From Nitrospira sp. (lineage in GTDB: Bacteria > Nitrospirota > Nitrospiria > Nitrospirales > UBA8639), in NCBI GenBank assembly GCA_024760505.1, contig CP058931.1:352136-416135 (forward strand): a stretch of 64,000 bases of DNA. Reading direction: 5' to 3'. The translations under genes and the position numbers were made by a program. The number at the start of each line of letters is the position of its first letter. Position 1 is the first letter of the stretch. Shown piece by piece: positions 1,756-34,380 of this stretch. The notes under the pieces are model-generated. The model had not been told where the DNA came from. It was given only the letters and a program-made list of their open reading frames with translations, and did not search any database.

Positions 1756-1885
1756 TTATTCCTCCACCAGCATAAAATTCCAAATGTTTTTCACCATCTT
1801 GTCTTATGGGGTTGTGTGACCAGCACGGGGAAGCCGTGTATCGGCTTCCCCGTTCCCAAACCCGTCAACTAAACATAATGCCGGC

Positions 1886-4800
1886 TCATTTCAGTTCGAC
1901 GGGTTTAATATGGACCACTTGCTCGTGTGGCAACTTGGCTTCCTTAACGCCAGAAGCCCTTCCATCCAATGACAGGATTCGTTGATCACTCCCTGGTAGG
2001 ACGCGCAAATATCCCCATTGCCCTGATTGGGAATAGGGCAACCGCTGGTTGCTCCAGACGTAATCCCCTGTGCGTTGATATGGCCCACCTGCGGCCGGAA
2101 TGAAGGCATCCAACGCTTCTGACCCCGAAAACTCCACGACGTTGATTTGATCGGCTCCTCGCATGAATGGTTCGATCGGCCATTCATGACTCTCCACACT
2201 AAACATCCCGTTCTGCTCACTGCTGGCGCCGAAAACATGGATGCGAACGGGGTCACCGGCATGGGCCTCGATGATCGGCGTGACGGGGTCTTCCGGGTGT
2301 TCCTCTGAGCAGGGCTGGAATATCCTGTCCAACGTACAACCCTGCTCTTCCCGGAATAAATAGGGTTCCGCTCGATAATTCACCCCGACCAAACCGGCCA
2401 CGTTCTGCACGTAAGGCATAAAGCTCGTACCGATAATGTTGTCCTCGTCCTGGAAGAACAAGGCCGCGTCCCGATAATTAGGTCGGTTTTCATATCCGGT
2501 CACCGTTCTGTCCACGATCACGTCGGCAATCCAACTATTTTTATTGGATATATCCGCACCTGTTTTCGGATCCCGATACGTCGCGCCTTTCGGCCCAATG
2601 ATGATGGCGCCGTAGAGCCCATTCCGTGGATTGTGCATGACATTGCCCCAATCCCAAACCAACGAAGCAATCTCCCCTAAAAACGGATCCGCGTAATAGG
2701 TGTACGTCCGACTCTCCCCAGGTGCAACCGTCTGATCGCCGGGGTTCTGTCCGACGTTGGCTCCCAACGAATCCTTAGGATCGAAGGCGAGGGAAAGCGC
2801 GGAGAACGAGGCGCGGCTTCCCTTCATTTGATTCGTCAGGTGAATCTTGAGACAGTCGCCCACATTGGCTCTCAGAGTCAGCGGCATAGGTTGAATACCA
2901 CTGGTCGTCTTTGCGACATCTTCTTCGAGCACATATATTTTTCCCTCCGGATTCTGGAGCAGAATGTTCCTTTCGAAATCGACCTCTACGGCTTCGGGTG
3001 CCTTCGTGTTGAAATTCATGGAAGGAAAATCCATCGCCACAACATTAAATGATTTCACCGGAGCCCCGGCGGGACAGACCGGACCAGGCTCTGGAATTTC
3101 ATTACGACCGGAATACCCGGCCGGCAGCTTTTGAAGATCAGGCACCTCTTTATCCAATACCCGCAGAATACCCCAGGCTCCTTCCGAGAACTTTGAAGAA
3201 CGTCCGTTAAAATGGATGTAGTCACCAGGCTGGAGCCGAGGCCCGCCTGCCTGCGGAACCACGAGATCGTATCGCTCTGCGATACCAATGTGGATGGAAT
3301 TTTTCCGGTTGGCATCACCGGCATACCGCTCGGTCAGAAAGGTATGCCCTGACAACGTCCACACCATTGATTCGTTTGTCATGGTCTCCAGCAACCGGAA
3401 CACGACCGTATCGCCGAGATACGCCCTGACCATCGGCGTATAGGGATCCCCATGAACATGGCTATTAAAGATGTTCGAGAAATCCGGATTTGCCTTGAGT
3501 CTAGCCGCGACCGGTTCGGCCCGGAAGTTAAAACTGCCACCGGTGGTGTGGGTTCCCCCGTTGAGGAACGGCATCGGTGTCATGGGAATATGTTCAGGCA
3601 TGGGAAATGAGATCGTCTTTCCCGCTTCCAGCGCGACCTCAATCGGCTGGCCCGGAGGATTCCCTGCAGTGACGATGTTGACGGAATGCGGCACACTGTC
3701 GTTCAACTGCACCATCAGTTCACGGAAGCTCCCGTTCACTCCATACCCTACCGGTTCAACCGTATGGATATCCGCAACCGGTCCACTTCGGATCGGTTCG
3801 CCCGTTTTGGGATCGTGATAGGTTGAGCCCCAGGGTTCAACAATCATCGTCCCGAACCCTCCGTGTCCCCAAGTTACACGGCCAACCGCATGGTCATGCC
3901 AGAACACGGTACCCACATCCGCATCCGCCCAGAATCGTTGTCGTACGAATTCCACGGTGACAATGTCATCCACCGGATGATCATGCTCTAACGGCCGATA
4001 CAGGGTGATCTGATTCCCATCTATGGCTTTAATGCGCCCGATCTCGTTGTCTTTCACGTTATCGGCACCGATCAGAATCTCGGTCTTCGGATGATATTGC
4101 GCGGCATTTTTTACCGTAATGGTTAGATCACCTTTCTTGCCCGGCTTCGTGAAGACCGTATTCATCGGTAGTGGCAGGCCCTTGTCAGTCGTCTTCTCCA
4201 TCATCGTAAACGGTCGCACCGATTGCTCATACGAAAAACCGGTAATCACACCATCCGACGATTGATTGTCGAACTGCATGAAATGCCAATGGGTGTTGAT
4301 CTTCGACGCATGCATGTTGAAATTGTCGTCATCAACCCATTCGTTTGTCAGCATCCAGTCAACACAGTCGTACACGTTAGACCTCACGACCAGCGGATGT
4401 CTCTTATCATTATTTTTTCGAACCTCTTCCTCCTCTTCATGCAGAACATAAATCGTCCCATCCGGATCGATGATTGCCGGTTCATCACCTTGTTTGTCTG
4501 CCACCATCATGGGGGTCTTGATGAAATGCACGTTAAACTTCTTAGAGCCGGCATTGGCTGGGCACAGGCTCCATCGTCCGTTTTCTCCAGGCTTTGCCGG
4601 ATAGGAACTCATCTGACCATCCTCGTCTAAATGGATCATTTCGAGCCATGGAGAAGGATTGTGATTTTGAGAGAATGGAACCCGTTTTCCGAAATGCGGC
4701 CTCAAGTGTGGCCATGCGATCTTACCGGTGGTGGGCTCGAACAGAATCGGCAAGCGTTCGCCGGGAGCCGGAGATTGGTATCGTGGATTGGGGATCGTGT

Positions 4801-12252: not shown

Positions 12253-12275
12253 AGCAGCGGACTTGCGGTTCTTCG

Positions 12276-12515
12276 TTAGGCTTCTATGGTTTGGGCATTT
12301 TTCCGCATTATCTGTCTGGATGGTGAAAACGTTTTAAGACGGGCCTTGCCCGCTTTGGGCCTGGGTTCGTTTTCCCGATTTTGTAAAATCAAAGAATCGA
12401 CAATTTCTCCACAGTTATAGCACTGCCAAGCCATGGACCATAACTGTCCTGAATCATTAAGATGATCTCCCATATTTAGCCAATGCATGAGACCAGCACA
12501 ACGACGACAATTCAT
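12276..12515 (-). CDS. Small Zn-ribbon protein (CxxC...CxxC), paralog of 32911-33156
   Basis: MNCRRCAGLM...WQCYNCGEIVDSLILQNR. It shares the pattern C-x2-C-x-G-L-M-x(17-20)-C-x2-C-G-[ED]-I-V-D-x2-I-L-x-N-R with the ORF at 32911-33156. Located directly downstream of nxrB. Confidence 0.55.
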   Translation of the reverse strand: MNCRRCAGLMHWLNMGDHLNDSGQLWSMAWQCYNCGEIVDSLILQNRENEPRPKAGKARLKTFSPSRQIMRKNAQTIEA

Positions 12516-12667
12516 AACATTCCCCCTTTCCGGCTTCTCCCCTTAACAGGGGAGAGACCGGGTGGCGATTTTTCCCTGACACGCATTTTTTAATCGCCAG
12601 CCGGCCTCCAGCCTCACCGAAAATTGATGGTTCCGGTTGTCTCCCACTGTATAAATAACCATGGAAC

Positions 12668-13957
12668 TTACAGCCAGTTCACCCGCTCCGCCGGGCGGAT
12701 GTAAATCGGCTCTTCCACTTGCTGCCGCACCGCTTCCTTGCCCGACTTGTTGAAGCCCAACACCGTGTCGTTGTACATCTCAAACTTCCGCCCATGGATT
12801 TGGGTTTCAAACACTTTCGGCCCCGGAATCACGTCATACCGGAAGATGATCTGCTGGCTCGCCCGCCACAACTGCAGCACCGCCAACAACTCCCGGCTCG
12901 GCACCAGATACTTCTCAATCGCATTATCCACCCCCGGCCCGAACATCTGCCGGATGTAGCCCCGCGGCGCCTGCCGCGGTGGGATGTAAAATCCGTTGGG
13001 TTCCGTGCCCCATTGCGGATACAACGGCAACGCCACTTGTTCCACCCGGATGGCATAGTACAACGGATTCCAGCGATCTTCCGCCCAGAGCCCGTCATCG
13101 CCCACCTTCACCAACCCTTGCAGCCGGATTTTGCCCACGCACGCTGCCATACACCGCGTCTCCATCGGCTCGCCCCCGGTTAAGGGGTCTTTGCCTTCCA
13201 CCCGCGGATAGCACGCAATACACTTCTCACTCACCCGCGTCGTGCCCCGGTACATCGGCTTTTTAAACGGGCATTGCTCCACACACTTCTTGTACCCCCG
13301 GCACCGGTTCTGGTCGATCAACACAATCCCGTCTTCCGGCCGCTTGTAGATGGCCTTCCGCGGACACGCCGCCAGACACCCCGGATACGTACAGTGGTTA
13401 CAGATGCGTTGCAGATAGAAGAAGTACGTCTCATGCTCCGGCAAGCTGCTGCCTTGCATTTTCCACGGCTCTTCTTTCGTGAACCCCGTCTTATCCACCC
13501 CTTCCACGATGGCCCGCATCGAGGTGGCCGTATCTTCATAAATATTCACAAACCGCCATTCCTGGTCGGTCGGGATGTAGCCAATGGCCGCCTGCCCGAT
13601 CTTGGCGCCCGCGTCAAAGATCGTCATCCCTTCAAACACCCCATACGGCGCATGGTGTTTGCGGCCCACCCGCACGTTCCACACCTGCCCGCCCGGATTG
13701 ACCTGCTCAATCAACTGCGTGATCTTCACATCGTAGAACTGCGGATAGCCCCCGTATGGCTTCGTTTCCACGTTGTTCCACCACATGTATTCCTGCCCTT
13801 TGCTGAACAGCCACGTCGACTTGTCCGCCATCGAGCAGGTTTGACACGCCAAACACCGGTTGATGTTAAAGACAAACGCGAACTGCCATTTCGGATGCCG
13901 CTCCTCATACGGATACAGCATCTTTCGTCCTAACTGCCAGTTATACACTTCAGGCAT
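12668..13957 (-). CDS. nxrB: Nitrite oxidoreductase beta subunit (Fe-S subunit of a type II DMSO-reductase-family enzyme)
   Basis: Four ferredoxin-type Cys clusters (CLACQTC, CNHCTYPGC, CRGYKKCVEQC, CIACYPRVE). I prefer the start MPEVYNWQLGRK at 13957, which has GGAGG 7 nt upstream and gives 429 aa, over the ORF-track start at 14011. Confidence 0.9.
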   Translation of the reverse strand: MPEVYNWQLGRKMLYPYEERHPKWQFAFVFNINRCLACQTCSMADKSTWLFSKGQEYMWWNNVETKPYGGYPQFYDVKITQLIEQVNPGGQVWNVRVGRKHHAPYGVFEGMTIFDAGAKIGQAAIGYIPTDQEWRFVNIYEDTATSMRAIVEGVDKTGFTKEEPWKMQGSSLPEHETYFFYLQRICNHCTYPGCLAACPRKAIYKRPEDGIVLIDQNRCRGYKKCVEQCPFKKPMYRGTTRVSEKCIACYPRVEGKDPLTGGEPMETRCMAACVGKIRLQGLVKVGDDGLWAEDRWNPLYYAIRVEQVALPLYPQWGTEPNGFYIPPRQAPRGYIRQMFGPGVDNAIEKYLVPSRELLAVLQLWRASQQIIFRYDVIPGPKVFETQIHGRKFEMYNDTVLGFNKSGKEAVRQQVEEPIYIRPAERVNWL

Positions 13958-14014
13958 TGTCGTCCTCCGTTTCAGTGAAAATGTCGGGGCTGCCCGGGAA
14001 GAGCCGGCCAACGC

Positions 14015-14434
14015 TCAGGTTGCCAACCCTCCGGTATCAACCCAGCAATCAATTTTTCGAAAATTCCTTAAGGCCATGACCCCGTTCACCATATGACTGA
14101 GATTGTGAAGATCTACGGTTTTGATCATGACCTCACAATTCCCAATTTCTTTCATTTCCTGTGGATCTATCCAACCTTCATACGCGGTAAAGATAATGGC
14201 TGGAATAGAAGAAATTTTTCGAATAGCATGCAGGGTTTCCACCCCATTCATCCCACCCATTTTATAATCCACCAAGATCACATCAGGTTCATCCCTATGA
14301 TCTCTTAAAAATTCCATCAAGGCCTCTCCCGATTCAAAGGCACGTACCGTGCAATGCAACCGAGAAAGTTTTTTCGCAATATTTAACCGAACCACCTCAT
14401 CATCATCCACCACAAATACAGAGGGTTTGCTCAC
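14015..14434 (-). CDS. Stand-alone CheY-like response-regulator receiver protein
   Basis: VFVVDDDEVV (acidic pocket), ILVDYKMGGMNG (phospho-acceptor Asp), IIFTAY and MIKT are the conserved receiver positions. There is no output domain. GTG start. Sits between nxrA and nxrB. Confidence 0.8.
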   Translation of the reverse strand: MSKPSVFVVDDDEVVRLNIAKKLSRLHCTVRAFESGEALMEFLRDHRDEPDVILVDYKMGGMNGVETLHAIRKISSIPAIIFTAYEGWIDPQEMKEIGNCEVMIKTVDLHNLSHMVNGVMALRNFRKIDCWVDTGGLAT

Positions 14435-14520
14435 CGACGGGTCCTACCTGGTTCATCTTGCTTCCCCTCACAGTTTTCATGATAAAAGGCTTACAAGAAT
14501 TATTGAGGTCCAACGATCAC

Positions 14521-14597
14521 AAAAAAAGGAGGCTGGGGGGAGGTATTCATCATATTTCTTTCTAGACGTCAATATAGAAAAAATATCCCCAGCCTCC
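14521..14597 (-). terminator. Long-loop hairpin plus T7 tract immediately downstream of nxrA (possible attenuator or terminator)
   Basis: On the minus strand, GGAGGCTGGGG (rc of 14587-14597) pairs with CCCCAGCCTCC (rc of 14528-14538) and is followed by TTTTTTT (rc of 14521-14527). The stem is 11 bp and GC-rich, but the loop is about 48 nt, which lowers confidence. Confidence 0.35.
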
Positions 14598-14604
14598 AGC
14601 TCAC

Positions 14605-17600
14605 CTACACTTTGATCTTAATGTGATCACCCTTCAGCCATTTGATCATAAACTCATTCTCCTGACCTGGCGTGAACCCGGTCCGGACGGGTTCCCACGG
14701 CCCGCGTCCGCCGATGCCGCCATCCTCCGCCTTGGTAATCCGGATGAGACACTCCTTCGGTACCGTGTTGACCGCATGATGATCAATTTCAAAACCCCAT
14801 TTAAATTTCCATTTATTCGCCATTTTGCCTGGCAACGAGTCCAATTGGTGCATCGGCATCAGCCAACTGCGGGTAAAGGACTGTTGCGCCCCATACCGGA
14901 AGTTCGATTGATAGCCGGTGTCCAGTGCAATCGCCCGTCCGTCCGGCCGGGTTTCATGCCCCTTCACCGACTTTGCCGTCGACACGTACGGCGCATGCTT
15001 GGCCATCGTGACATGGTACGGGAAGGCCGGGTTGTACTTCGCCCGGATCATCAACCGCGCCACCTTGTAATAGGGGTCGCTGGGCTTCCAGCCACGATAC
15101 GGCCGGTCCACCGGATTCCCATCGACGTAGACATAGTCCCCGTCGTTGATCCCACGATCTTTGGCCGCTGATGGGTTGACATGGATTTGATGCTCACCCA
15201 CCCCCGGTGTCCGCTTATCCATTCGATAGGCATCGCCAAAGTTGGATTCATACATCTGGACCCAATCGTTCACCGACCATTGGCTATGCACCCGATGCCG
15301 GGTCTTCGGCGTCACACAATAGAACTGATACCCCTTCTCCCAGAGCGGATTGGCGTACCGTTTAATTTCCGCCCAGGGCAACTTGATGTTGCGAACGGTT
15401 TTGTCGTCATGATGTTGCGCCGTGATCGGAATCCCATAGTCATCCGGCCGGATATACGGATTGGATGACATGATCGCATTCGGCAGGTAAGGTGTCGCTT
15501 CCGTTCCCTCCCGATGCGAGATGAAGTTTTCCCCATATTCAATAGCCTCCGGCTCCACCCGGTAAGTTTCCAGCCGGCCACTGCGGGTCCACATCGGTTT
15601 CGATTCGTTGGTTTCTTCCCACAATGGAATACGAGGATAGGTCCGGGTCATCACCATCCAGCCCTTTTCCGATTTCAACATCGTGTCCGCCGAATAGCCA
15701 TAGGAAGTGCTACCGGCATCCAACAACCGTTGAACATACACATCCACGCGATTGTCATAGACAAATTTGAAGTAATCGCGGAACCGGCCGTCACCGGTCA
15801 TTTCGGTAAGTTTGGCCGCGACGCCCGCCACCGTATCCAAATCGTTCCGCGTGTCATACAACGGCCGGATACCGCCTTTCCAAACCTGCATCCAGGGATT
15901 GGAGACAGTGGCGGTCATTTCAGGATAGGTAAACTCCATCCACCCGTTTACCGCAAAGGACACATCGGCGTGATTCACATCGGATGTCATTTCAATGTCC
16001 TGAGTCACAATCGTTTCGATGTGGGGATCCACATTCTTGACCATGTCATAATGGTGTTTGGAATTATTGAGAATATTGACATTCGCCACCCATCGGAGCT
16101 TACTCGGCGTGGGCATATGCGTCTTGCCGGTAAACACCCGACGACCATATTTTGGCGTATTCACAATCAACGCCGTATCGCCGTGGTTCCAGTACGTCGT
16201 CTCTTCGCCGTAATAGTATGGACGGTAATTAATTTCTTTCCCATGGGCATTCGGATCCGTCGTGATTTTGAACGGATTTTCCCCGGTGTGGATCCCGATG
16301 CCTTCCCCGGACCATGGCGTGGCCGCCCAAACACCAACCTTATAGTTTCCTGACCATGTATGACATCCCGAACCGAATTTCCCCATGTTTCCGGTCAGAG
16401 TCATTACCATGGCGGCTGCACGCCCCATCGACGTCATATGAAAGTAATGGCAGACGCCTTCTCCATTATGAATGGCGGCCGGTTTGATGGTCCCGTTATC
16501 TCGAGCCCATCGAACAATAAGGTCTTTCGGACATCGATTGATTTGGTGGACCGTATCCAGATCGTAATCCTGAAGATGGACTTGATACATCTGGAAAAGA
16601 GGCATGACATCCGCCTCCCTCCCACTCAGCAATTTCACCCTGAACGATCCCGTCAACGCCGGGTCAATGCCGCTCTTCTTGAAATGCCAACCCACCAGTT
16701 CTCGATGAAGCGGGACCGCCTTGTCCTGATTGAGATCCCACACCATAAACCCTCCAAGACGAGCAATCTGCGAAGGCGAAAGCCCTTGCACTTTGCCGGA
16801 GTAAGATTTGGAAAAATCCGGGAAGGCATAATCTTTAATGACATCACGCGGATCCAAATATTGCAGGGTGTCCGTGCGAATCAACAAGGGAAAATCCGTG
16901 CTGGATCGAATGAAATCGTTGTCCTGAAGTCCATCGTCTAAAATTATTTTGCAGGCCCCGAGGAATAACGCTCCATCTGTCTCGGGGCGGACCGGCATCC
17001 AATAATCGGCCCGTTGTGCCGTTGGATTGTATTCCGGGGTAATGACCACTACTCGACCACCCCGTTCAATGGACTCCAGTTTCCAATGGGCTTCCGGCAT
17101 CTTGTTTTCGACGAAATTTTTTCCCCAGCTTGTATTCATCTTGCTGAATCTCATGTCAGAAAGATCGCAATCGATGGCTTGCGCTCCGGACCAGAAGGGT
17201 TGCGAAGGATCCTGATCACCGTGCCAGGTCAAATTGTTAAAATATCGCCCCCCCTGCGCACTGTCCGGTCCGACCTTTCTCACCCAACTATCCAACAGGG
17301 CTCCACATCCTCCGTTCATCCGGGTAATACCCATTTTGCCTATGACACCTAACACGGGCATACCAGCACGAAATTTCATGCTCCGGACTCCTGAGCCCTT
17401 CATCATCTCGATCATTTCCGGAGGATACCCTTGTTCCCGTAATCGCCTCGCACCGGCCTCGCCACTATACCGGTTGGCGATCACGATCATGGCCTTGGCC
17501 AAATAGGTAAACGCGGTATCCCAGGAGACCCGCAACATATCATCCAAATAGCGCGCACTGAATTTATATTTGGTCATGACCGTTGGGTCTAATTCCGGAC

Positions 17601-18042
17601 TTCCGTCATCCATCCAGGCTTTCCAGCCACGCCGCATCAAGGGCCCCTTTAAACGGTATGGACCATACACACGCCGATGGTAGGTATACCCCTTCAAACA
17701 CATCCGGGGATTATGGGCAAAGGTCCCCCGATTCCCGTACATATCCTCATAGGTTTGATGATCGTAGTTTTGCTCTACGCGCATGACGACCCCGTTCCGG
17801 ACAAACGCCCGGATACGACAGGCATGCGTGTCATTCGGAGAACAACACCAGGTAAAGGAACTGTCATACCGGTATTGATCGTGATAAACCCTCTCCCAGG
17901 AGCGATCCGGGTATTCACCCAATGGATTGCCCACCTCCACAACCGGTTGTAATGCCGTCAACGCCAGCGCATTATCCGCCAACGCCACAGCTGCCACAGT
18001 GCCTGCTGTAATTTTTAAAAATTGTCTTTTTGTGACCAACAT
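14605..18042 (-). CDS. nxrA: Nitrite oxidoreductase alpha subunit (molybdopterin subunit, periplasmic type)
   Basis: About 1145 aa. Tat-like leader MLVTKRQFLKITAGTVAAVALADNALALTA, N-terminal Fe-S Cys cluster (TWCCSPNDTHAC) and molybdopterin oxidoreductase architecture. Adjacent to nxrB and the bd-like oxidase. I prefer the ATG at 18042, with GGAGGA 7 nt upstream, over 18057. Confidence 0.9.
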   Translation of the reverse strand: MLVTKRQFLKITAGTVAAVALADNALALTALQPVVEVGNPLGEYPDRSWERVYHDQYRYDSSFTWCCSPNDTHACRIRAFVRNGVVMRVEQNYDHQTYEDMYGNRGTFAHNPRMCLKGYTYHRRVYGPYRLKGPLMRRGWKAWMDDGSPELDPTVMTKYKFSARYLDDMLRVSWDTAFTYLAKAMIVIANRYSGEAGARRLREQGYPPEMIEMMKGSGVRSMKFRAGMPVLGVIGKMGITRMNGGCGALLDSWVRKVGPDSAQGGRYFNNLTWHGDQDPSQPFWSGAQAIDCDLSDMRFSKMNTSWGKNFVENKMPEAHWKLESIERGGRVVVITPEYNPTAQRADYWMPVRPETDGALFLGACKIILDDGLQDNDFIRSSTDFPLLIRTDTLQYLDPRDVIKDYAFPDFSKSYSGKVQGLSPSQIARLGGFMVWDLNQDKAVPLHRELVGWHFKKSGIDPALTGSFRVKLLSGREADVMPLFQMYQVHLQDYDLDTVHQINRCPKDLIVRWARDNGTIKPAAIHNGEGVCHYFHMTSMGRAAAMVMTLTGNMGKFGSGCHTWSGNYKVGVWAATPWSGEGIGIHTGENPFKITTDPNAHGKEINYRPYYYGEETTYWNHGDTALIVNTPKYGRRVFTGKTHMPTPSKLRWVANVNILNNSKHHYDMVKNVDPHIETIVTQDIEMTSDVNHADVSFAVNGWMEFTYPEMTATVSNPWMQVWKGGIRPLYDTRNDLDTVAGVAAKLTEMTGDGRFRDYFKFVYDNRVDVYVQRLLDAGSTSYGYSADTMLKSEKGWMVMTRTYPRIPLWEETNESKPMWTRSGRLETYRVEPEAIEYGENFISHREGTEATPYLPNAIMSSNPYIRPDDYGIPITAQHHDDKTVRNIKLPWAEIKRYANPLWEKGYQFYCVTPKTRHRVHSQWSVNDWVQMYESNFGDAYRMDKRTPGVGEHQIHVNPSAAKDRGINDGDYVYVDGNPVDRPYRGWKPSDPYYKVARLMIRAKYNPAFPYHVTMAKHAPYVSTAKSVKGHETRPDGRAIALDTGYQSNFRYGAQQSFTRSWLMPMHQLDSLPGKMANKWKFKWGFEIDHHAVNTVPKECLIRITKAEDGGIGGRGPWEPVRTGFTPGQENEFMIKWLKGDHIKIKV

Positions 18043-18094
18043 CAAACGCTCCTCCATACTAAGGTTGACAGTTCCGGCTCACGACACAAACCCT

Positions 18095-18283
18095 TTACTC
18101 CTCCTTTCTTTGAGACTGCCTCAACCGATGTCTTTCCCAGACATTCAATTCGGCAGGTATCACTACCGCGGTTTTTGGGGGATCGACCATAAGATTTGCC
18201 CATCCCAACACTAAGACTCCCACGAAGCTGACTATCCCGAAGATCATTTCAATCAGAGGATTTGCAACCCAAAATTCCATCAT
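18095..18283 (-). CDS. Hypothetical small single-TM protein
   Basis: 62 aa with one hydrophobic helix (MIFGIVSFVGVLVLGWANLMV) and a basic C-terminus. GGGGGA lies upstream of the ATG. Located between the bd-like oxidase and nxrA. No family recognised. Confidence 0.3.
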   Translation of the reverse strand: MMEFWVANPLIEMIFGIVSFVGVLVLGWANLMVDPPKTAVVIPAELNVWERHRLRQSQRKEE

Positions 18284-18416
18284 CTCTTTCCCCCTCTCTG
18301 TTCAATCACTCCATCATCCGCTTCACTTACATGAGTGACCGTGCCTTTCGCCCCTGTCCTCACGCTGACTTCATGAATCCCTGATTCATTCATCCCTAGC
18401 TTCCCCAGGAAATACA

Positions 18417-20402
18417 TCAGGAACGACTGGCCGGTTGTGGGGTGAACTGCGGCACAGCCGGTGACTCTGGTACCTTCGGCGTCTCCGGTACCGGCGATTT
18501 TTTACCGGCAAATGCCGCCAGCCAGAACACAAATAAAATGGTCGACCAGAACAGCAGAACATTGAAGGAGATCATATTCGCGGCAAACCCGATGGTGTGC
18601 GTATAGGCCCAGGGCGAGTTATCCCGCATCACCTCGTTGACATGCCAGAAGAGACGGACTGATGAACGGATGTATCCCATCAAGGCCATCATCCAGGTAA
18701 ATTCCGTGGCCAGGGCGATCAGAGCATATTGCGATCTCGCCGGCATTTTGCCCCATTGAATGGGGCCCGCCACCTTGGCATTTTTCAGCATGGCCAGATT
18801 CATCGGCATCATTAACAGGAGGCACGACATCGTGGTAGCCACCTGGGGTACCGATAGACCAATCCGCACGTTTGCCGGAATGAAATAACCATAGATGGCT
18901 AACCAAATAATATTGAGACTGCCGACCACGAAAAAACAGGTCATGAAAATATTGCCGAATTTTTTCCATTTCACTGCCGGAATCAAATTGCCGCGCTGAT
19001 ACCAAATGAAACTCACAATCGTCACAATGATGAGCATATTGATTCCGCCATTTTTGGCCGACATCACCCCATAGTTCCCTAAAACGGGATGCTGTTGACC
19101 TCCCATGGCTTTTAACTCAGCCGGGGTCATCACAATGGTATGGGGCGTGATAAATACCAGGAGGCCCACGACCGCAATAAACACCAGATATTTAATATAC
19201 CGTTGGAATCGTTCCGCACCCGGCATCCGGCCAAAGCATTGCCACAAGTAATAACTTGTACTCAGAAAAAGGGCACCGATCATGGTGGCCTGAATAATAA
19301 ACAACCAAGCGAGGAGGCCTCCCATCAGGGTAATTCCCATTTGCTGGCGATACGCATACACCTCCCGCATGAGCCAATAGCCCGCAAACGGCAATGGAAT
19401 GAGGAAAATGACTGCGATAAACATCGCGACGTATCCCATCCAATCGTAATGGGCACGTTCTTCATCGGTTTTCGCGGATAAAAACCGATAGGCCGCGTAG
19501 GCGGCAACGACGCTGCCTCCGAATGCCATATTTCCTAGAATTCGATGAACATTCAGCGGATTCCACAACGCGCTATGAATCGCATGCCAAATGTTCCCGA
19601 GATACCGTCCCTGTTCATCCACTCCTGCCGGTGACATCATGAAGGCGATCCACGAATTCGCTAAAAACATCAGCACGGTTCCAATGACATTCAAGACCAC
19701 GGCGATACTGAGATGCACCCACTTCAGGACGCCTTCCCTCATCCTGTCCCATCCATAGTAGTAGATATACAACGTTCCGCTTTCGGCGACGAACAGCAGA
19801 GCGTAGATGTGCATGACAGGACGAAAAATCCCTGAGAGATAACTGAAAAATGTGGGATAGAGCGTGAGAAAGGTGAAAAGGAGAATGCCCCCAAGGATTG
19901 CCGTCAACGAATAGGCGGTCAGACTGATTCTGATAAAATCATAGGCCAGCTGGTCGTATTTCTTCGCCATGGCCTTATCCTTTGTCACCATGCCGATGAA
20001 CTCAATCACCATACAGAAGATAGGAACCGCCAAGACAAAACTGCCGTAATACAAATGCTGCTGGTTCGCAACCCAAATCAGCACTCGACTTTCAAAATTG
20101 CCATAGCGGGGATAATCATGCGTATTGTCCGCGGTGACTGGAGCAGTTTCACTCGACACCACGCCTTCGGTCTTGTAATAAATATCCCGTCCCATTTCGA
20201 CCGGCGCTGCCCCTTCCTCACCCTCGACAACCTCCTGAGCAGGCGGGGAGCTTTGCCCTCCCCCCGACGCGATGGCTTCACCATTTCCAAATAGGATCGG
20301 CATCGCGATACCGATCGGCAGCAGCAACATTCCCACAATGATGCCGATCAGCATCATTGCGGCATTTTTTTTAAGCTTCATTCCCTCACGTATTCCACTC
20401 AT
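18417..20402 (-). CDS. Cytochrome bd-like oxidase (CydA-like polytopic membrane protein)
   Basis: 661 aa with about 14 hydrophobic segments and a CydA-like N-terminal region (NFESRVLIWVANQQHLYYGSFVLAVPIFCMVIEFIGM). Nitrospira genomes are known to carry such bd-like oxidases. Confidence 0.8.
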   Translation of the reverse strand: MSGIREGMKLKKNAAMMLIGIIVGMLLLPIGIAMPILFGNGEAIASGGGQSSPPAQEVVEGEEGAAPVEMGRDIYYKTEGVVSSETAPVTADNTHDYPRYGNFESRVLIWVANQQHLYYGSFVLAVPIFCMVIEFIGMVTKDKAMAKKYDQLAYDFIRISLTAYSLTAILGGILLFTFLTLYPTFFSYLSGIFRPVMHIYALLFVAESGTLYIYYYGWDRMREGVLKWVHLSIAVVLNVIGTVLMFLANSWIAFMMSPAGVDEQGRYLGNIWHAIHSALWNPLNVHRILGNMAFGGSVVAAYAAYRFLSAKTDEERAHYDWMGYVAMFIAVIFLIPLPFAGYWLMREVYAYRQQMGITLMGGLLAWLFIIQATMIGALFLSTSYYLWQCFGRMPGAERFQRYIKYLVFIAVVGLLVFITPHTIVMTPAELKAMGGQQHPVLGNYGVMSAKNGGINMLIIVTIVSFIWYQRGNLIPAVKWKKFGNIFMTCFFVVGSLNIIWLAIYGYFIPANVRIGLSVPQVATTMSCLLLMMPMNLAMLKNAKVAGPIQWGKMPARSQYALIALATEFTWMMALMGYIRSSVRLFWHVNEVMRDNSPWAYTHTIGFAANMISFNVLLFWSTILFVFWLAAFAGKKSPVPETPKVPESPAVPQFTPQPASRS

Positions 20403-20545
20403 TTCTCTCCCCCCAAAATCATTGGACTCATCTGGCCTGCAAAAATTTTTCCTCTGATAAATTCATCTCACAAGTTTTTCCGACATGGCCGTAATCTTGG
20501 TGTGACCAATTTCATTCCCGTCTTTCCTGTATGTTGTTGAACGCT

Positions 20546-20563
20546 TTGCATGGGCCATGCCCA
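20546..20563 (-). promoter_or_regulatory. Candidate sigma-54 (-24/-12) promoter upstream of the bd-like oxidase / nxr genes
   Basis: Minus strand reads TGGGCATggcccATGCAA with exact GG-N10-GC spacing, about 145 nt upstream of the ATG at 20402. Its -24 box (TGGGCAT) is identical to that of the 33268-33284 candidate. A 9-bp perfect palindrome AGGCGGTGG-ccac-CCACCGCCT at 20677-20698 lies about 125 nt further upstream and could be a UAS. Confidence 0.45.
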
Positions 20564-21840: not shown

Positions 21841-23364
21841 CTAGAGTCGAGTCGGGCGTTGAAGACCTAATTTTTTGATCCGGCTCCTGAGCGTGCTAGG
21901 TGCCAATCCGAGTTGTTCCGCCGCGCCACCCTCCCCCTCGATCTGCCAATTGCTGGAGGCCAGGGTCTGAAGAATATGTTGCCGTTCAAAATCAACTAAT
22001 CCGGCCGGAGCCTTTGATTCATGCGTGGCATTCTGAAGAATCAAAAGCCGTTCATCAATGCGCAGAACCTTTTGGTGGGAGAGAATCACCGCCCGTTCAA
22101 TCACATTTTCCAGTTCTCGAATATTGCCCGGCCAGGAATACCGGATAAGCCGCTGCAGAGAATTCGGTTCAATAGATTCGCAGGGCCGTTTGAGTTTCAT
22201 AGCATAATGCTCCAGAAAATGCTGTGCGAGTTCTGGAATATCTTCCGGCCGGGCACGGAGGGGAGGGATGGTAATCGGAAATACATGAAGTCGATAGAAA
22301 AGGTCAGCACGAAAACGACCTTGTTCAATGGCTGATGGCAGATCGGCATTAGTTGAGGCCATCAACCGAATATCCACTGGGATAGACTGTTTTCCACCCA
22401 CACGATCGACCATCCCGTCCTGAATTACTCGTAATAATTTTGCTTGGGTCTCCATAGGAATTTCCCCGATTTCGTCTAACAACAAGGTCCCGCCATGGGC
22501 TAACTCAAAACGCCCCTCACGTCTGGAATCGGCTCCGGTAAACGCTCCTTTTTCGTGACCGAATAATTCGCTTTCGACTAATCCTGCCGGAAGGGCCGCA
22601 CAATTGACCCTAATGAAGGGTTTGTTCGCACGCATGCTCCAATCATGAATGGCTTGGGCGAGGAGTTCCTTCCCGGTTCCCGTTTCCCCCGTGATGAGAA
22701 CAGTCGCCGTCGTAGGAGCGACCTCGCGGGCAAGTTCCAATACATGCTGAAAAACCTGACTTCGTCCTACCATGGCCCCGAAGTGTTTTGTCAGCTTGAG
22801 TTCCTCGACCAGATAGGTGTTTTCTCGTGCCAACTGCTGACGTAGCAGATTAATTTCCTCATAGGCCTGTACATGATCTATTGCATAGGCAATTTGCATT
22901 GCCACTTGGGATAAAAACTCAAGTGCATCCGGCTCCGGGTTCCCAGGATCAACGCTCCCAAGATTCAACACCCCCACACACTTTCCTCTGACCAACAACG
23001 GCAGGTTGATCATGCGTCCCAGCCCTTCCTCCACATACCATTGGTCTTCCAGAAAGACCTGCTCCTGTTTGAGATCAGGACGGACATGTAACGTCTTGTG
23101 ATCGTACACCCACCCCATTGCACTCCCAACACGCGGTATCACGGTATCGCCTTGCACCACGACCCTCGCCAAATGAGTCGTCACAACATAAAATTGAAAT
23201 CCATCAGACTTACGGTCATATAAAGTTACACTGACCCGGGCCCAAGGCATGACCTGTTCAATCTGCTCGATAATGGCCTGCCAGAGACTATCGGTATCCC
23301 GTTGTGAATTGAGCACAATCGCGACATTCAAGAGTGCCCGGTAATTTCTCTCGATTCGTTCCAC
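21841..23364 (-). CDS. Sigma-54-dependent transcriptional activator, GAF - AAA+ - Fis-type HTH
   Basis: Walker [15 protein letters not shown] sigma-54 contact loop (HEKGAFTGA), [14 protein letters not shown] and a C-terminal HTH ([21 protein letters not shown]). The N-terminal ~170 aa are GAF-like. Confidence 0.9.
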
Positions 23365-24755: not shown

Positions 24756-26318
24756 TTATTCAGAGTGCCGCTTGATCCCGAATTTTTTCAATCGGCTTCT
24801 CAGGGTGCTGGGGTGTAATCCCAGATGCTTGGCCGCCCCTAATGGTCCATCAATTCTCCATTCACACGCCGTTAAGGCTTGGAGTATTCGAGTGCGCTCC
24901 ACGTCTTTTAATTGAGTGGGTGGCATTGCATCCATGTCGTTTGCCGGTGACTGCAACAACGAATCTTCCACATGTATGATCGACGATTGGCAAAGAATCA
25001 TGGCTCGTTCAATCACATTTTTTAGTTCCCGTACATTACCCGGCCATGGATACTGAACCAGCATTTCCATTGAACGATCATCGATGTCCTGACAGTTTCG
25101 TCTGAACTGCAACCGATTTTTCTCCATGAAATGTCGCACCAGAAGGGGAATATCATGTATACGTTCCCGGAGGGGAGGCACCACAATCGGAAAAACATGC
25201 AATCGATAATATAGGTCGGAACGAAAACGACCTTCGGCAATCGCCTTGCTTAAATCGCTATTGGTCGCGGCAATGATTCGCACATCGACGGCTTTCCCTT
25301 CGATACTGCCTACTCGTTCCACGATACCATCCTGTAAAACCCTCAGGAGTTTTGCCTGCGCTTCAATCGGCATCTCCCCGATTTCATCAAGAAACAAGGT
25401 GCCGCCATTGGCTAATTCAAATTTGCCGGGTCTTCCAGTCTCTGCACCGGTAAACGCACCTTTTTCATGGCCGAAGAGCTCACTTTCCACCAGACCTGAA
25501 GGTAATGCCGCACAATTGACTCGAACAAAGGGCTTTACTTTGCGAGGGCTCAACTCATGAAGTAATCGTGCCAATAGTTCTTTTCCGGTTCCCGTTTCCC
25601 CCATAATGAGCACCGAGGTCGTGGTCGGGGCAACGGCCTGAGCCAAGTCCAGCACGTTCTTAAACTTTTGACTGTTTCCTACCATCGCTCCAAAATCGTA
25701 TGAAACTTTGATTTCTTCTAGGAGATAGGCATTTTCACGGGTGAGCTGTTCCTTCAGATGGTGGATCTCTTCATAGGCCCGCACATGATCAATGGCAAAG
25801 GCAATTTGAGTCGCCACTTGGCGTAGGAACAAGACATTTTCCGGATCAGGATCCCCGGATTCCACACTGCCAATATTCAAAGATCCGATGCAATTATCCC
25901 CAATAATCATAGGAATATTGATCATTCTTCCCAGGCCCTCTTCGTGATAAAACGCATCTTCTAAAAATACGGGATTTTGTTGTAAATGGGGACGTATATG
26001 AAGACGCCGATGACTATACACCCACCCCATGGCACTGCCTTCTCGAGGAATGATGGCATCACATTTCAACTTTACCACCGGCATACTCGTTTCCACCGCG
26101 TAAAACCGAAAAGCATCTATGTCAGAATGATAGAGAGTAATACCCGCGCGTTCCCAAGAGATCACCTTTTTAATATGTCCGGTAATGGCTTTCCACAAAT
26201 CTTCCGTATTCCGTTGGGAATTTAAGATGTTCGTGACTTCCAGCAAGGTTTGATAGAAGTTTCGGGCTAGTTGATCGGTTGGGTAATTCATATCGACTAT
26301 CATGTGTAAGCCCCTCAC
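24756..26318 (-). CDS. Sigma-54-dependent transcriptional activator, GAF - AAA+ - HTH (paralog of 21841-23364)
   Basis: [25 protein letters not shown] and C-terminal AAKHLGLHPSTLRSRLKKFGI. Collinear similarity to the 507-aa paralog across all domains. Confidence 0.9.
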   Translation of the reverse strand: MRGLHMIVDMNYPTDQLARNFYQTLLEVTNILNSQRNTEDLWKAITGHIKKVISWERAGITLYHSDIDAFRFYAVETSMPVVKLKCDAIIPREGSAMGWVYSHRRLHIRPHLQQNPVFLEDAFYHEEGLGRMINIPMIIGDNCIGSLNIGSVESGDPDPENVLFLRQVATQIAFAIDHVRAYEEIHHLKEQLTRENAYLLEEIKVSYDFGAMVGNSQKFKNVLDLAQAVAPTTTSVLIMGETGTGKELLARLLHELSPRKVKPFVRVNCAALPSGLVESELFGHEKGAFTGAETGRPGKFELANGGTLFLDEIGEMPIEAQAKLLRVLQDGIVERVGSIEGKAVDVRIIAATNSDLSKAIAEGRFRSDLYYRLHVFPIVVPPLRERIHDIPLLVRHFMEKNRLQFRRNCQDIDDRSMEMLVQYPWPGNVRELKNVIERAMILCQSSIIHVEDSLLQSPANDMDAMPPTQLKDVERTRILQALTACEWRIDGPLGAAKHLGLHPSTLRSRLKKFGIKRHSE

Positions 26319-34370: not shown

Positions 34371-34380
34371 CAGGAAGGAG

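What the first reader, a model, noticed from the sequence alone, without database searches (positions are those of the whole stretch)
12276..20563. nxr locus with a CheY-like receiver gene inserted between nxrA and nxrB
The order on the minus strand is bd-like oxidase, 62-aa TM ORF, nxrA, stand-alone receiver (14015-14434), nxrB, Zn-ribbon ORF. As far as I know, nxrA and nxrB are normally directly adjacent in Nitrospira.

Here a complete receiver domain (DD pocket, phospho-Asp, T, K) separates them. An 11-bp GC-rich stem followed by T7 (14521-14597) sits right after the nxrA stop. That would allow nxrA and receiver-nxrB transcript levels to be uncoupled, and it places a phospho-signalling protein inside the operon of the key energy-conserving enzyme. 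No nxrC candidate is visible in the window.
Basis: partly seen in the sequence, partly recalled or inferred. Interest (0 to 1): 0.65.

Follow-up and report, generated by a model that had tools for sequence, protein, structure and literature searches.

The report
Receiver gene and anti-start RNA inside nxr operon
A small phospho-signalling (receiver) gene does sit between the two main nitrite-oxidoreductase genes, but this is the normal, already annotated layout in marine Nitrospira; the "terminator" next to it is a conserved RNA hairpin that is antisense to the ribosome-binding site and start of an nxrA gene.

Summary
On the minus strand the order is bd-like oxidase, 62-aa membrane ORF, nxrA, 139-aa stand-alone receiver, nxrB, 79-aa Zn-ribbon ORF. 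An 11-bp stem plus T7 follows the nxrA stop at 14521-14597.

- **Arrangement.** nxrA and nxrB are directly adjacent in about 74 of 80 Nitrospirales loci. nxrA-receiver-nxrB is nevertheless the conserved layout in marine lineage-IV Nitrospira: Ca. N. neomarina, Ca. N. allomarina, Ecomares 2.1, MA-1 and several MAGs.
- **N. marina Nb-295.** A 138-aa receiver is annotated between nxrA_3 and nxrB_3. It was detected at 1-3 spectral counts against about 450 for NxrA_3. No paper I found discusses it.
- **Receiver family.** It is a small family seen only in Nitrospirales or unnamed metagenome sequences, under purifying selection, and always nxr-linked. Its nearest multi-domain relatives look NtrC-like.
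- **Hairpin.** It is not a plain terminator. It is a conserved ~83-nt element, also present in loci with no intervening receiver, and the T-run is often missing. Its core is the reverse complement of the nxrA Shine-Dalgarno, ATG and first eight codons. It matches another nxrA paralogue in the same genome better than its own gene.

The functions of both the receiver and the element are inferred, not shown.

The parts
20548..20563 (-). Candidate sigma-54 (-24/-12) promoter GGGCATGGCCCATGCA, about 160 nt upstream of the bd-like oxidase gene
   Evidence: Pattern hit. It is identical and at the same distance in syntenic locus L007. It has 3 mismatches to the consensus and the pattern is not enriched in the window, so this is weak evidence.
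18417..20402 (-). Cytochrome bd-like oxidase, first gene of the cluster
   Evidence: PF01654, E 1e-14. It is 94% identical in L007. The same position is occupied in MA-1 (L164), and in N. marina bd-like_1 sits two gene numbers before nxrA_2.
18095..18283 (-). 62-aa hydrophobic ORF
   Evidence: ORF. It is conserved in L007 (84%), and a 65-aa gene is called at the same place in L164. No Pfam family.
14605..18057 (-). nxrA. The real start is probably the ATG at 18042 (M6), with Shine-Dalgarno GGAGG at 18051-18055. The Tat motif reads KR instead of RR (MLVTKRQFLK).
   Evidence: Pfam. Other NxrA proteins align from residue 6. Translation-initiation-region comparison.
14520..14602 (-). Conserved ~83-nt structured element directly after the nxrA stop. 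It has an outer 11-bp stem (14597-14587 with 14538-14528), an inner U-rich/purine-rich stem, and then T7 (14527-14521).
   Evidence: Sequence and fold. It is conserved in 17 loci. Pair counts give 91.6% paired cells and 5 pairs with changes on both sides. Covariance model R1 scores 92.6 bits, E 4e-22, and finds full-length hits only after nxrA. No Rfam family matches.
14539..14573 (-). Anti-TIR core of the element. It is the reverse complement of an nxrA Shine-Dalgarno, spacer, start codon and codons 2-8 (GGAGGT-N7-ATG TTT CTT TCT AGA CGT CAA T).
   Evidence: Model positions 18-65 hit the opposite strand at the nxrA start in about 45 loci.
14015..14434 (-). Stand-alone receiver (single-domain response regulator), 139 aa, with a GTG start and a weak AGGA Shine-Dalgarno at 14442-14445
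   Evidence: PF00072. Invariant D10, D11, D56, T83 and K105. AlphaFold2 gives a (beta-alpha)5 fold at pLDDT 78, and Foldseek returns Spo0F, CpxR-REC and RR468. dN/dS is 0.09-0.28. The GTG start is found in all ten loci examined, window included.
12668..13957 (-). nxrB (429 aa from the ATG at 13957; Shine-Dalgarno GGAGG at 13964-13968)
   Evidence: Pfam Fer4_11. It is 94-100% identical to 80 Nitrospirales NxrB loci.
12276..12515 (-). 79-aa Cys-rich (Zn-ribbon-like) ORF downstream of nxrB
   Evidence: ORF. It is conserved in L007 (87%), L002 (78%) and L017 (72%), and a 74-aa gene is called in L164.
21841..23364 (-). GAF-AAA+-HTH sigma-54 activator (NifA-like, no receiver domain) upstream of the cluster
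   Evidence: Pfam. The same type of regulator flanks nxr loci in L165 and L010 and in N. moscoviensis according to the literature.
24756..26318 (-). Second GAF-type sigma-54 activator
   Evidence: Pfam.
832..6784 (-). 1632-aa multicopper-oxidase-like gene and 307-aa CarboxypepD_reg gene. In other genomes this pair directly precedes a second nxrA-receiver-nxrB cluster.
   Evidence: Pfam. The same pair lies upstream of nxrA in L001, L162 and L163. The paralogous receiver P0018 is on the same 3.70-Mb contig. The second cluster itself lies outside the window.

Best explanation
**What it is.** The window holds one of the nxr clusters of a marine lineage-IV (Nitrospira marina group) nitrite oxidiser. 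The order is bd-like oxidase, small membrane protein, nxrA, 83-nt RNA element, single-domain response regulator, nxrB, small Zn-ribbon protein. The receiver between nxrA and nxrB is an inherited, selected feature of this clade's nxr clusters, not a recent insertion.

**Receiver (inferred mechanism).**
- The receiver is most likely transcribed with nxrA and nxrB. This is inferred from the 57-nt gap to nxrB, the absence of a conserved terminator, and nxrB's need for high expression.
- It is translated poorly, because it has a conserved GTG start and a weak Shine-Dalgarno sequence. The cell therefore makes a small amount of phospho-acceptor in proportion to nxr transcription.
- The receiver family is related to NtrC-type receivers. 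In sister loci it sits directly after a GAF-type sigma-54 activator that lacks a receiver of its own.
- My best guess is that, once phosphorylated by an unidentified histidine kinase, it modulates the nxr-linked sigma-54 activators. That would be a split NtrC-like arrangement giving feedback and paralogue choice.

**Hairpin.** It is a conserved RNA element whose predicted single-stranded loops are antisense to the ribosome-binding site, start codon and first codons of nxrA. Here it does not match its own nxrA but the canonical MFLSRRQ-type nxrA of another cluster. The most likely role is therefore to stabilise or partly terminate the nxrA message, and to pair in trans (in some clusters in cis) with an nxrA translation-initiation region, setting the hierarchy among NXR paralogues.

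**Shown versus inferred.** Shown: gene content, conservation, selection, complementarity. Inferred: co-transcription, the partner of the receiver, and any RNA-RNA regulation.
For: **Arrangement.** All nine genomic contexts recovered for receiver homologues lie between nxrA and nxrB. The N. marina annotation and proteome detection are.

**Family.**
- 76 homologues were found; every one that carries a name is from Nitrospirales, and the rest are unnamed metagenome sequences.
- Only one representative cluster scores below E 1e-30 among 1.8 billion proteins, followed by a few singles at 46% identity.
- dN/dS is 0.09-0.28 and the catalytic residues are invariant.

**Low translation.** The GTG start and AGGA Shine-Dalgarno occur in all ten loci examined, window included. 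In N. marina the receiver gave 1-3 spectral counts, against 351-474 for NxrA_3 and 45-69 for NxrB_3.

**Link to sigma-54 activators.**
- GAF-type activators sit beside the cluster.
- Loci L010, L011, L012, L018, L021 and L023 carry nxrA, element, nxrB and, about 2 kb downstream, a related stand-alone receiver. In L010 the gene between nxrB and that receiver was confirmed as a GAF-type activator.
- In a neighbour-joining tree the nearest multi-domain relative is a 462-aa ORF next to nxrAB in L034. It reads as receiver, AAA+ and HTH by eye; Pfam was not run on it.

**Element.**
- It is conserved in 17 loci while the flanking spacer is only 35-48% identical.
- Compensatory changes occur in the outer stem.
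- Full-length covariance-model hits occur only after nxrA, and core hits lie antisense at nxrA starts.
- Same-genome duplex energies favour the other paralogue: -77 against -57, -75 against -55, -62.5 against -53 and -66.7 against -49.6 kcal/mol.
- The window element pairs with its own TIR at -22 kcal/mol, which equals the shuffled background. It pairs with canonical TIRs at -52 to -56 kcal/mol.
Against: - No histidine kinase is encoded in the window.
- No experiment links the receiver to any activator.
- The neighbour-joining tree is crude.
- Receiver abundance in N. marina did not change with O2.
- Co-transcription is unproven. Metatranscriptome contigs cover the receiver but never span from the element to the receiver.
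- The nxrA/element inverted repeat could be maintained by gene conversion between paralogous clusters, which are visibly recombining, without any RNA-level role.
- In the most divergent genome (L032, L034) complementarity is only modest.
- The window genome's other nxrA start regions could not be retrieved.
Confidence: 0.45

Rival explanations
1. The hairpin is just an intercistronic stabiliser or partial intrinsic terminator, as found after nxrA in many Nitrospira. Its similarity to the nxrA start is a by-product of an old inverted duplication, kept similar by gene conversion among nxr paralogues. It has no antisense function.
For: - Nearly all nxrA-nxrB spacers carry some GC-rich hairpin right after the nxrA stop, with unrelated sequences in other lineages.
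- nxr clusters recombine. The window's receiver is a mosaic of two paralogues, and nxrB recombination is documented in N. moscoviensis.
- The window copy does have a T7 tail.
Against: - The core is invariant (CGTCT..AAGAA..AT) across clades whose NxrA is only 85-88% identical, while the adjacent spacer is 35-48% identical.
- The Shine-Dalgarno-to-ATG spacer, which is non-coding and variable, matches the other paralogue in the same genome exactly (L011/L013 and L023/L022).
- The parts complementary to the Shine-Dalgarno, AUG and codons 5-8 are predicted to be unpaired loops.
- The T-run is absent in most copies.
Confidence: 0.35
2. The receiver is a phosphate sink or connector in a phosphorelay unrelated to transcription of nxr. 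It could resemble Spo0F or a CheY-type sink, or a CpdR-type adaptor acting on protein stability. It would be placed in the operon only to be co-expressed with NXR.
For: - It is a single-domain architecture with a full phospho-acceptor pocket.
- The best sequence and structure matches include Spo0F and RR468.
- It has low abundance.
Against: - It is repeatedly adjacent to sigma-54 activators, and its nearest multi-domain relatives look NtrC-type.
- No phosphotransferase or kinase gene is nearby.
Confidence: 0.2
3. One reading: the hairpin is a regulated terminator. It uncouples nxrA from a separately controlled receiver-nxrB transcript.
For: - An 11-bp GC stem plus T7 lies directly after the nxrA stop in the window.
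- Estuary metatranscriptome contigs of the receiver have much lower depth than nxrA 3' contigs. These depths pool many populations.
Against: - The T-run is missing in L001, L162, L165, L010-L012, L018, L021 and L023.
- The loop is 48 nt and the scan did not call it a terminator.
- NxrB is needed in comparable amounts to NxrA, and NxrB is abundant in N. marina.
- No sigma-70-like or sigma-54-like promoter was found between the hairpin and the receiver.
Confidence: 0.12
4. The receiver acts post-translationally on NXR biogenesis, for example by gating cofactor insertion or Tat export of the cytoplasmic NxrA-NxrB precursor.
For: - The gene sits exactly between the two subunit genes.
- NXR is assembled in the cytoplasm before Tat export, which is established knowledge for Tat-exported molybdoenzymes.
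Against: - The receiver is present at about 1% of NxrA, so it is sub-stoichiometric.
- Related receivers sit next to activators rather than between subunit genes.
- No precedent is known to me.
Confidence: 0.05

Closest known systems
Nitrospira marina Nb-295 nxrA_3 / receiver / nxrB_3 cluster (IMG 2597406883-885) and nxrA_2 cluster behind bd-like_1 (Bayer et al. 2021, PMC8115632, supplementary data sets)
   Same: [quoted passage not shown] For the second cluster, bd-like oxidase sits two gene numbers upstream, as in the window. nxrC is encoded elsewhere.
   Different: The paper's text only says that nxrA and nxrB are 'colocalized in three clusters'. It does not mention the receiver or any RNA element. 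Sequence identity to the window's receiver is about 73-75% for this type.
Canonical nxrAB loci of Nitrospira lineages I/II (N. moscoviensis, N. defluvii) and nxrABC of Nitrospina gracilis
   Same: NxrA and NxrB are the same proteins (82-83% and 94% identity to N. moscoviensis). Sigma-54 / NifA-like regulators are adjacent. A hairpin follows the nxrA stop.
   Different: nxrA and nxrB are separated by only 44-170 nt, with no gene between them. Their hairpins are unrelated in sequence and are not antisense to the nxrA start. Nitrospina adds nxrC to the operon.
Single-domain response regulators (CheY, Spo0F, DivK, CpdR, SdrG)
   Same: It has the receiver fold only, a complete acidic pocket with T and K, and no output domain.
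   Different: There is no chemotaxis or sporulation context. The position three residues before the conserved Lys is Val, not the aromatic switch residue of CheY. Its nearest multi-domain relatives look like NtrC-type activator receivers. Its partners are unknown.
NtrC/NtrC1/DctD-type sigma-54 activators (receiver-AAA+-HTH)
   Same: The receiver sequence type is similar (motifs LTAY-G and K-[ST]-[VI]-[DE]-L). It is genomically associated with sigma-54 activators and with sigma-54-like promoters.
   Different: Here the receiver is a separate polypeptide and the neighbouring activators carry GAF or PAS domains instead. Regulation in trans is hypothetical.
3'-UTR/5'-UTR pairing of Staphylococcus aureus icaR mRNA, the fold-back inhibition element of hok mRNA, and 3'-UTR-derived sRNAs
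   Same: A sequence just downstream of a coding region carries an anti-Shine-Dalgarno / anti-start segment able to pair with a translation-initiation region.
   Different: Here the complementarity is 33-36 nt, covers the first eight codons, sits between two cistrons of an operon, and fits a paralogous gene's start better than its own. No experimental evidence exists for it.

Membership tests
Response regulator receiver domain (PF00072), single-domain type | Profile match above the curated threshold | tested here: met
   70.5 bits against a cut-off of 30.2, covering profile positions 1-110 of 111.
Response regulator receiver domain (PF00072), single-domain type | Acidic pocket (DD), phospho-acceptor Asp, and conserved Thr/Ser and Lys | tested here: met
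   D10, D11, D56, T83 and K105 are invariant in 32 homologues at 52-90% identity.
Response regulator receiver domain (PF00072), single-domain type | (beta-alpha)5 fold | tested here: met
   The AlphaFold2 model has pLDDT 78 and five strand/helix pairs. Foldseek returns Spo0F, CpxR-REC and RR468 with target-normalised TM-scores of 0.85-0.89.
Response regulator receiver domain (PF00072), single-domain type | No output domain | tested here: met
   The ORF is 139 aa, bounded by the nxrA spacer and the nxrB Shine-Dalgarno. Homologues are 127-150 aa.
Response regulator receiver domain (PF00072), single-domain type | Phosphorylation by a cognate kinase or by acetyl phosphate | not testable with these tools
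   No kinase gene is in the window. A biochemical assay is needed.
CheY proper (chemotaxis regulator) | Encoded with che or flagellar genes, with the aromatic switch residue three positions before the conserved Lys | tested here: not met
   No che genes are in the window. The position three residues before K105 is an invariant Val. 'CheY-like' applies to architecture only.
Periplasmic Nitrospira-type nitrite oxidoreductase locus (nxrAB) | NxrA with molybdopterin and Fe4S4 domains and a Tat signal; NxrB as a ferredoxin-type FeS subunit (its four clusters are from established knowledge) with high identity to known Nitrospira NxrB | tested here: met
   Pfam. NxrB is 94% identical to N. moscoviensis NSP M-1 and up to 100% to marine MAGs. 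NxrA is 82-96% identical.
Rho-independent (intrinsic) terminator | GC-rich stem immediately followed by a U-tract | tested here: met
   The window has an 11-bp stem and T7.
Rho-independent (intrinsic) terminator | Short loop, and a U-tract conserved in orthologous copies | tested here: not met
   The stem encloses a 48-nt structured insert, and the scan did not call it. The U-tract is absent in L001, L162, L165, L010-L012, L018, L021 and L023.
Rho-independent (intrinsic) terminator | Transcript 3' ends at the site in vivo | tested here: inconclusive
   The metatranscriptome contigs are fragmented and come from mixed populations. None spans or ends informatively at the hairpin.
Antisense / anti-TIR regulatory RNA element (icaR-3'UTR-like, hok fbi-like, 3'-UTR sRNA-like) | Extended complementarity, on the transcribed strand, to the Shine-Dalgarno and start codon of a target mRNA, beyond chance | tested here: met
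   Covariance-model core hits lie on the opposite strand at nxrA starts, with E 1e-6 to 1e-4 in about 45 loci. Paired runs of 33-36 nt give duplexes of -62 to -77 kcal/mol, against about -24 +/- 4 for shuffled targets.
Antisense / anti-TIR regulatory RNA element (icaR-3'UTR-like, hok fbi-like, 3'-UTR sRNA-like) | Conserved structure presenting the antisense segment | tested here: inconclusive
   The outer stem has compensatory changes, with 91.6% of cells paired and a clear peak at slide 0. Loops carrying the anti-Shine-Dalgarno/AUG segment are only predicted. There are few independent lineages.
Antisense / anti-TIR regulatory RNA element (icaR-3'UTR-like, hok fbi-like, 3'-UTR sRNA-like) | Effect on translation or stability of the target | not testable with these tools
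   This needs reporter, toeprint or RNase III experiments.
Sigma-54-dependent operon | Enhancer-binding proteins nearby and a -24/-12 promoter | tested here: inconclusive
   Three activators are present. One GG-N10-GC site lies at -160 of the bd-like gene and is conserved in L007. It has 3 mismatches, and the pattern is no more frequent than in shuffled sequence.

The most novel reading that the evidence does not exclude
Marine Nitrospira choose among their paralogous nitrite oxidoreductases by two operon-embedded devices that have not been described.
- An intercistronic anti-TIR RNA lies at the 3' end of nxrA. It pairs with, and silences or destabilises, the translation-initiation region of a different nxrA paralogue. 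In the one three-cluster genome available, both elements pair best with the receiver-less cluster.
- A low-abundance stand-alone receiver is translated from the same mRNA. It feeds the level of nxr expression, plus a kinase signal, back to the GAF-type sigma-54 activators.
Probability: 0.25. Interest if true: 0.8.

Novelty: new variant of a known kind. Interest (0 to 1): 0.55.

Why it matters
Nitrite oxidoreductase is the sole energy-conserving enzyme of these globally important nitrifiers, and most Nitrospira carry several near-identical nxrAB copies. The reasons for this redundancy and the way the copies are regulated are still open.

If the receiver and the anti-start RNA element really act on paralogue choice, they give concrete, testable handles for that question: a protein to knock out or pull down, and a roughly 35-nt pairing to mutate. 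N. marina already shows differential NxrA_1 and NxrA_3 abundance under low O2.

If they do not act this way, the practical value is smaller. It corrects the assumption that nxrA and nxrB are always adjacent, which matters for nxr primer design, assembly and operon annotation in marine Nitrospira.

Tried and rejected
- **Metagenome scan.** It was uninformative.
- **Window's own genome.** Look-ups of the paralogue P0018 and of the window's 307-aa protein found nothing on record. The genome's other nxr clusters could therefore not be read.
- **MA-1 type-1 cluster.** The contig starts 246 nt before the receiver, so there is no nxrA start to test.
- **NxrA homologue search.** It did not return the neomarina paralogues.
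- **Rfam.** No family matches in 12000-21000.
- **Metatranscriptomes.** The receiver is transcribed, but contigs are too fragmented and mixed to show read-through or termination.
- **Promoter between hairpin and receiver.** No sigma-70 match was found and no sigma-54 pattern.
- **Dispersed repeat (REP/MITE).** Rejected, because full-length model hits occur only after nxrA in 1.27 Mb.
- **Inversion switch.** I considered the inverted repeat as a DNA inversion switch for nxrA. I rejected it on logic, because inversion would only destroy the gene.
- **Disulfide between conserved Cys28 and Cys100.** Rejected, because they lie on opposite edge strands of the sheet.
- **Literature.** Searches found no paper describing a gene between nxrA and nxrB or an nxrA antisense element. 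The library is not exhaustive.

Full report
**1. Observation**

ORF listing and Pfam scans confirm the stated minus-strand order:
- bd-like oxidase, 18417-20402 (PF01654);
- 62-aa hydrophobic ORF, 18095-18283;
- nxrA, 14605-18057 (molybdopterin, Fe4S4 and Tat signal);
- a 139-aa receiver, 14015-14434 (PF00072, 70.5 bits);
- nxrB, 12668-14011, with its real start most likely the ATG at 13957 behind a GGAGG;
- a 79-aa Cys-rich ORF, 12276-12515.

GGAGGCTGGGG lies at 14597-14587, CCCCAGCCTCC at 14538-14528, and T7 at 14527-14521. The two arms enclose 48 nt that fold on their own, and the generic terminator scan does not report the site.

Three sigma-54 activators are present: two GAF-type and one PAS-type. 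No histidine kinase and no NxrC-like domain were found among the window ORFs scanned. A few mid-size ORFs were not scanned.

**2. Is the arrangement unusual?**

For Nitrospirales as a whole, yes. I scanned GTDB species representatives with NxrB and kept the best 80 loci, then mapped NxrA, receiver and NxrB onto them.
- About 74 loci have nxrA and nxrB separated only by a spacer of roughly 40-170 nt. This includes both N. moscoviensis loci recovered.
- Nitrospina has nxrABC.

For the clade the window belongs to, no.
- The receiver has 76 homologues. Every one that carries a name is from Nitrospirales, many of them marine lineage-IV organisms; the rest are unnamed metagenome sequences.
- Every genomic context I could recover places it between nxrA and nxrB. 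These are Ca. N. neomarina, Ca. N. allomarina, Ecomares 2.1, MA-1 and a JGI contig, and MAG loci L003, L007, L017 and L032.
- A more distant receiver (31% identity, PF00072 E 2e-22) occupies the same slot in L073, a MAG whose NxrB identity (94%) matches the non-marine loci.

The supplementary data of the N. marina Nb-295 paper show the same layout.
[quoted passage not shown] It lies between nxrA_3 (…883) and nxrB_3 (…885).
- One unlisted gene number separates nxrA_2 (…875) from nxrB_2 (…877), with bd-like_1 at …873, as in the window.
- nxrA_1 and nxrB_1 are adjacent.
- The paper's text says only that the genes are 'colocalized in three clusters'.
- None of the other papers I could search mentions the receiver.

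The layout is therefore a conserved and publicly annotated trait of marine Nitrospira that has gone undiscussed.

The window genome itself has a second copy.
- Paralogue P0018 (74% identity) is on the same 3.70-Mb contig.
- The window's left end carries the multicopper-oxidase-like gene and the 307-aa gene. In L001, L162 and L163 these directly precede the other nxrA-receiver-nxrB cluster.

**3. The receiver**

It is a bona fide single-domain response regulator.
- D10, D11, D56, T83 and K105 are invariant in 32 homologues.
- The AlphaFold2 model is a (beta-alpha)5 fold with a long alpha-5 and a disordered tail.
- Its best structural matches are Spo0F, the CpxR receiver and RR468.

It is under purifying selection, with dN/dS of 0.09-0.28.

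The family is small and discrete. Among 1.8 billion representatives only one cluster scores below E 1e-30. A few 130-145-aa proteins at about 46% identity follow, and then generic receivers.

A crude neighbour-joining tree gives three groupings:
- the nxr-embedded receivers, with the L032 type as sister;
- a related clade of stand-alone receivers in loci L010, L011, L012, L018, L021 and L023. These lie about 2 kb downstream of nxrB. In L010 the intervening gene is a GAF-type sigma-54 activator;
- as nearest multi-domain relative, a 462-aa ORF adjacent to nxrAB in L034. By eye it has a receiver, AAA+ and HTH layout like NtrC, but I did not scan it with Pfam.

All ten loci examined, window included, start the receiver with GTG behind a weak AGGA. 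nxrA and nxrB use ATG behind GGAGG. This fits the N. marina proteome, where the receiver gave 1-3 spectral counts, NxrA_3 351-474 and NxrB_3 45-69, with no O2 effect on the receiver.

The window's receiver is a mosaic.
- Its first ~200 nt are 92-93% identical to the other cluster type (L001) but only 62-77% to the syntenic bd-context receivers (L164, L007).
- The tail and the spacer to nxrB are again of the other type.
- This indicates gene conversion between the two clusters.

**4. The hairpin**

Aligning the region after the nxrA stop shows a conserved ~83-nt element in all receiver-bearing loci that share the window's receiver family (L073 lacks it). It is also present in seven loci with no receiver between nxrA and nxrB.
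- The core CGTCT(A/G)..AAGAA..AT is invariant.
- The outer stem shows compensatory changes in L032, L034 and L007. Overall 91.6% of cells are paired, with a sharp maximum at the correct register.
- The spacer just downstream is only 35-48% identical between loci.
- The T-run is not conserved.
- Rfam has no match.

A covariance model built from the 17 copies found full-length hits only after nxrA. Unexpectedly, its core also hit the opposite strand at the start of nxrA in about 45 loci.

Reading the sequences explains this.
- The element's core is the reverse complement of GGAGGT-N7-ATG TTT CTT TCT AGA CG(T/G) CAA T.
- That sequence is the Shine-Dalgarno, spacer, start codon and codons 2-8 (MFLSRRQ, the Tat signal) of lineage-IV nxrA.
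- Because the element lies on the nxrA sense strand, its RNA is antisense to that translation-initiation region (TIR).
- In the predicted fold, the anti-Shine-Dalgarno/AUG part and the part opposite codons 5-8 are loops. Only AGAAAGAA is sequestered.

The element fits another paralogue better than its own gene:

| Genome | Element to other paralogue's TIR | Element to own TIR |
|---|---|---|
| CBDCWC01 (L011 to L013) | 36-nt run, -77 kcal/mol | 19-nt run, -57 |
| OZ244992 (L023 to L022) | -75 | -55 |
| CALOBY01 (L018 to L016) | -62.5 | -53 |

- In these pairs the variable Shine-Dalgarno-to-ATG spacer matches the other paralogue exactly.
- In the three-cluster MAG CAWDGE01, both elements (L003, L007) pair best with the receiver-less cluster L004, at -66.7 and -60.0 kcal/mol.
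- The window's nxrA has a divergent start (MLVTKRQ, KR instead of RR; probable start ATG at 18042). It pairs with its own element no better than shuffled sequence (-22 against -20.7 +/- 4). The element pairs with canonical starts at -52 to -56 kcal/mol.

**5. How it most likely works**

*Shown:* the gene order; its conservation and selection; low receiver protein in N. marina; the element's conservation and its complementarity to nxrA start regions.

*Inferred:*
- (a) nxrA, the receiver and nxrB form one transcript, with the element acting as a stabiliser or at most a leaky terminator, since NxrB must be produced in amounts comparable to NxrA.
- (b) The receiver, made at about 1-5% of NxrA, reports nxr expression and a kinase signal to the GAF-type sigma-54 activators. 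Such activators are already proposed in the literature to regulate nxr paralogues differentially.
- (c) The element pairs with the translation-initiation region of another nxrA paralogue, and in type-1 clusters more weakly with its own. This would set a hierarchy among NXR isoenzymes.

The main rival for (c) is that the inverted repeat is a recombination relic kept alike by gene conversion. For (b) the main rival is a generic phosphate sink. Read-through could not be tested: metatranscriptome contigs show the receiver is transcribed but are too fragmented.

**6. Comparison and novelty**

- The receiver is an ordinary member of the receiver superfamily, and the arrangement is already present in annotated genomes. 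The finding as written is therefore not new sequence biology, though it is undiscussed.
- 'CheY-like' holds only for architecture.
- The terminator label fails two of its defining features.
- The nxr-linked stand-alone receiver family and the anti-TIR element are, as far as the searchable literature goes, undescribed variants of known kinds: single-domain regulators, and 3'-UTR/5'-UTR or antisense control.

**7. Verdict**

- Interest is moderate (0.55). The 'insertion' is a lineage trait, but following it up exposed a specific, testable candidate mechanism for regulating NXR paralogues.

Noticed in passing
window 14539-14573 (minus strand); L005 3473-3517; L048 3465-3514 and about 45 other loci: The core of the post-nxrA hairpin is the reverse complement of the nxrA Shine-Dalgarno, ATG and first eight codons. 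In four genomes it matches the start of a different nxrA paralogue better than its own.
   Followed up: yes
window 14015-14441 compared with L001, L003, L164, L007: The window's receiver is a mosaic. Its 5' ~200 nt and the tail plus spacer to nxrB are 81-93% identical to the other cluster type. The middle is unlike either type. This suggests gene conversion between the two nxr clusters.
   Followed up: partly
window 1-6784 (minus strand) and beyond the left edge: The 1632-aa multicopper-oxidase-like gene and the 307-aa CarboxypepD_reg gene precede a second nxrA-receiver-nxrB cluster in L001, L162 and L163. Paralogue P0018 is on the same contig. A second cluster therefore probably starts just outside the window.
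   Followed up: partly
window 18040-18057: The first ATG of the nxrA ORF overlaps a GGAGG. The likely start is the ATG at 18042. bd-context NxrA proteins (window, L007, L164) have a KR rather than RR Tat motif (M[LF]VTKRQFLK), whereas all others have MFLSRRQFLK.
   Followed up: partly
L010 8656-10731; also L011, L012, L018, L021, L023: In L010 the order is nxrA, element, nxrB, GAF-type sigma-54 activator, stand-alone receiver (146 aa, about 41% identical to the window's). The other five loci show the same receiver about 2 kb downstream of nxrB. An IS200-like transposase sits upstream of nxrA in L010.
   Followed up: partly
L073 3330-3725: A 131-aa receiver (31% identity) lies between nxrA and nxrB in a Nitrospira MAG whose NxrB identity (94%) matches the non-marine loci. 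There is no element of the marine type. This could be an independent or an ancient occurrence.
   Followed up: partly
L003 6526-6942; L163 7001-7384: Some receivers end at ...MRQ*, with the usual WVDTGGL(A/P)T tail left behind as untranslated sequence. The tail therefore seems dispensable.
   Followed up: no
window 31854-32348 and 32440-32847 (minus strand): Two more small receiver-type ORFs (164 aa, strong; 135 aa, weak) lie upstream of a 120-aa ORF and the PAS-type sigma-54 activator at 29079-31022. They are unrelated to the nxr receiver clade.
   Followed up: no
window 38606-46962: A cluster with a caspase-domain (Peptidase_C14)/DUF4384 protein, an ECF sigma factor, a zf-HC2 anti-sigma factor and three further DUF4384 proteins.
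   Followed up: no
window 33582-38521: A glycine-betaine-type ABC transporter (ATPase plus fused OpuAC-permease), followed by an EgtD-like histidine methyltransferase (PF10017, E 1e-101) and a class-V aminotransferase-fold protein. This looks like osmolyte or ergothioneine-related metabolism.
   Followed up: no
window 26001-28000: G+C drops to 0.41, against about 0.50 elsewhere. The small ORFs here have no Pfam family.
   Followed up: no
window 55143-58360: An antitoxin-like ORF (Unstab_antitox) and a GmrSD-type restriction endonuclease N-terminal domain protein. A transposase HTH fragment lies at 48195-48638.
   Followed up: no
L012, L018, L021, L165, about 200 nt upstream of nxrA: A sigma-54-like motif, (C/T/A)GGA(A/G)TG-N4-TTGCA, recurs at -197 to -211 of nxrA in four loci.
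   Followed up: no
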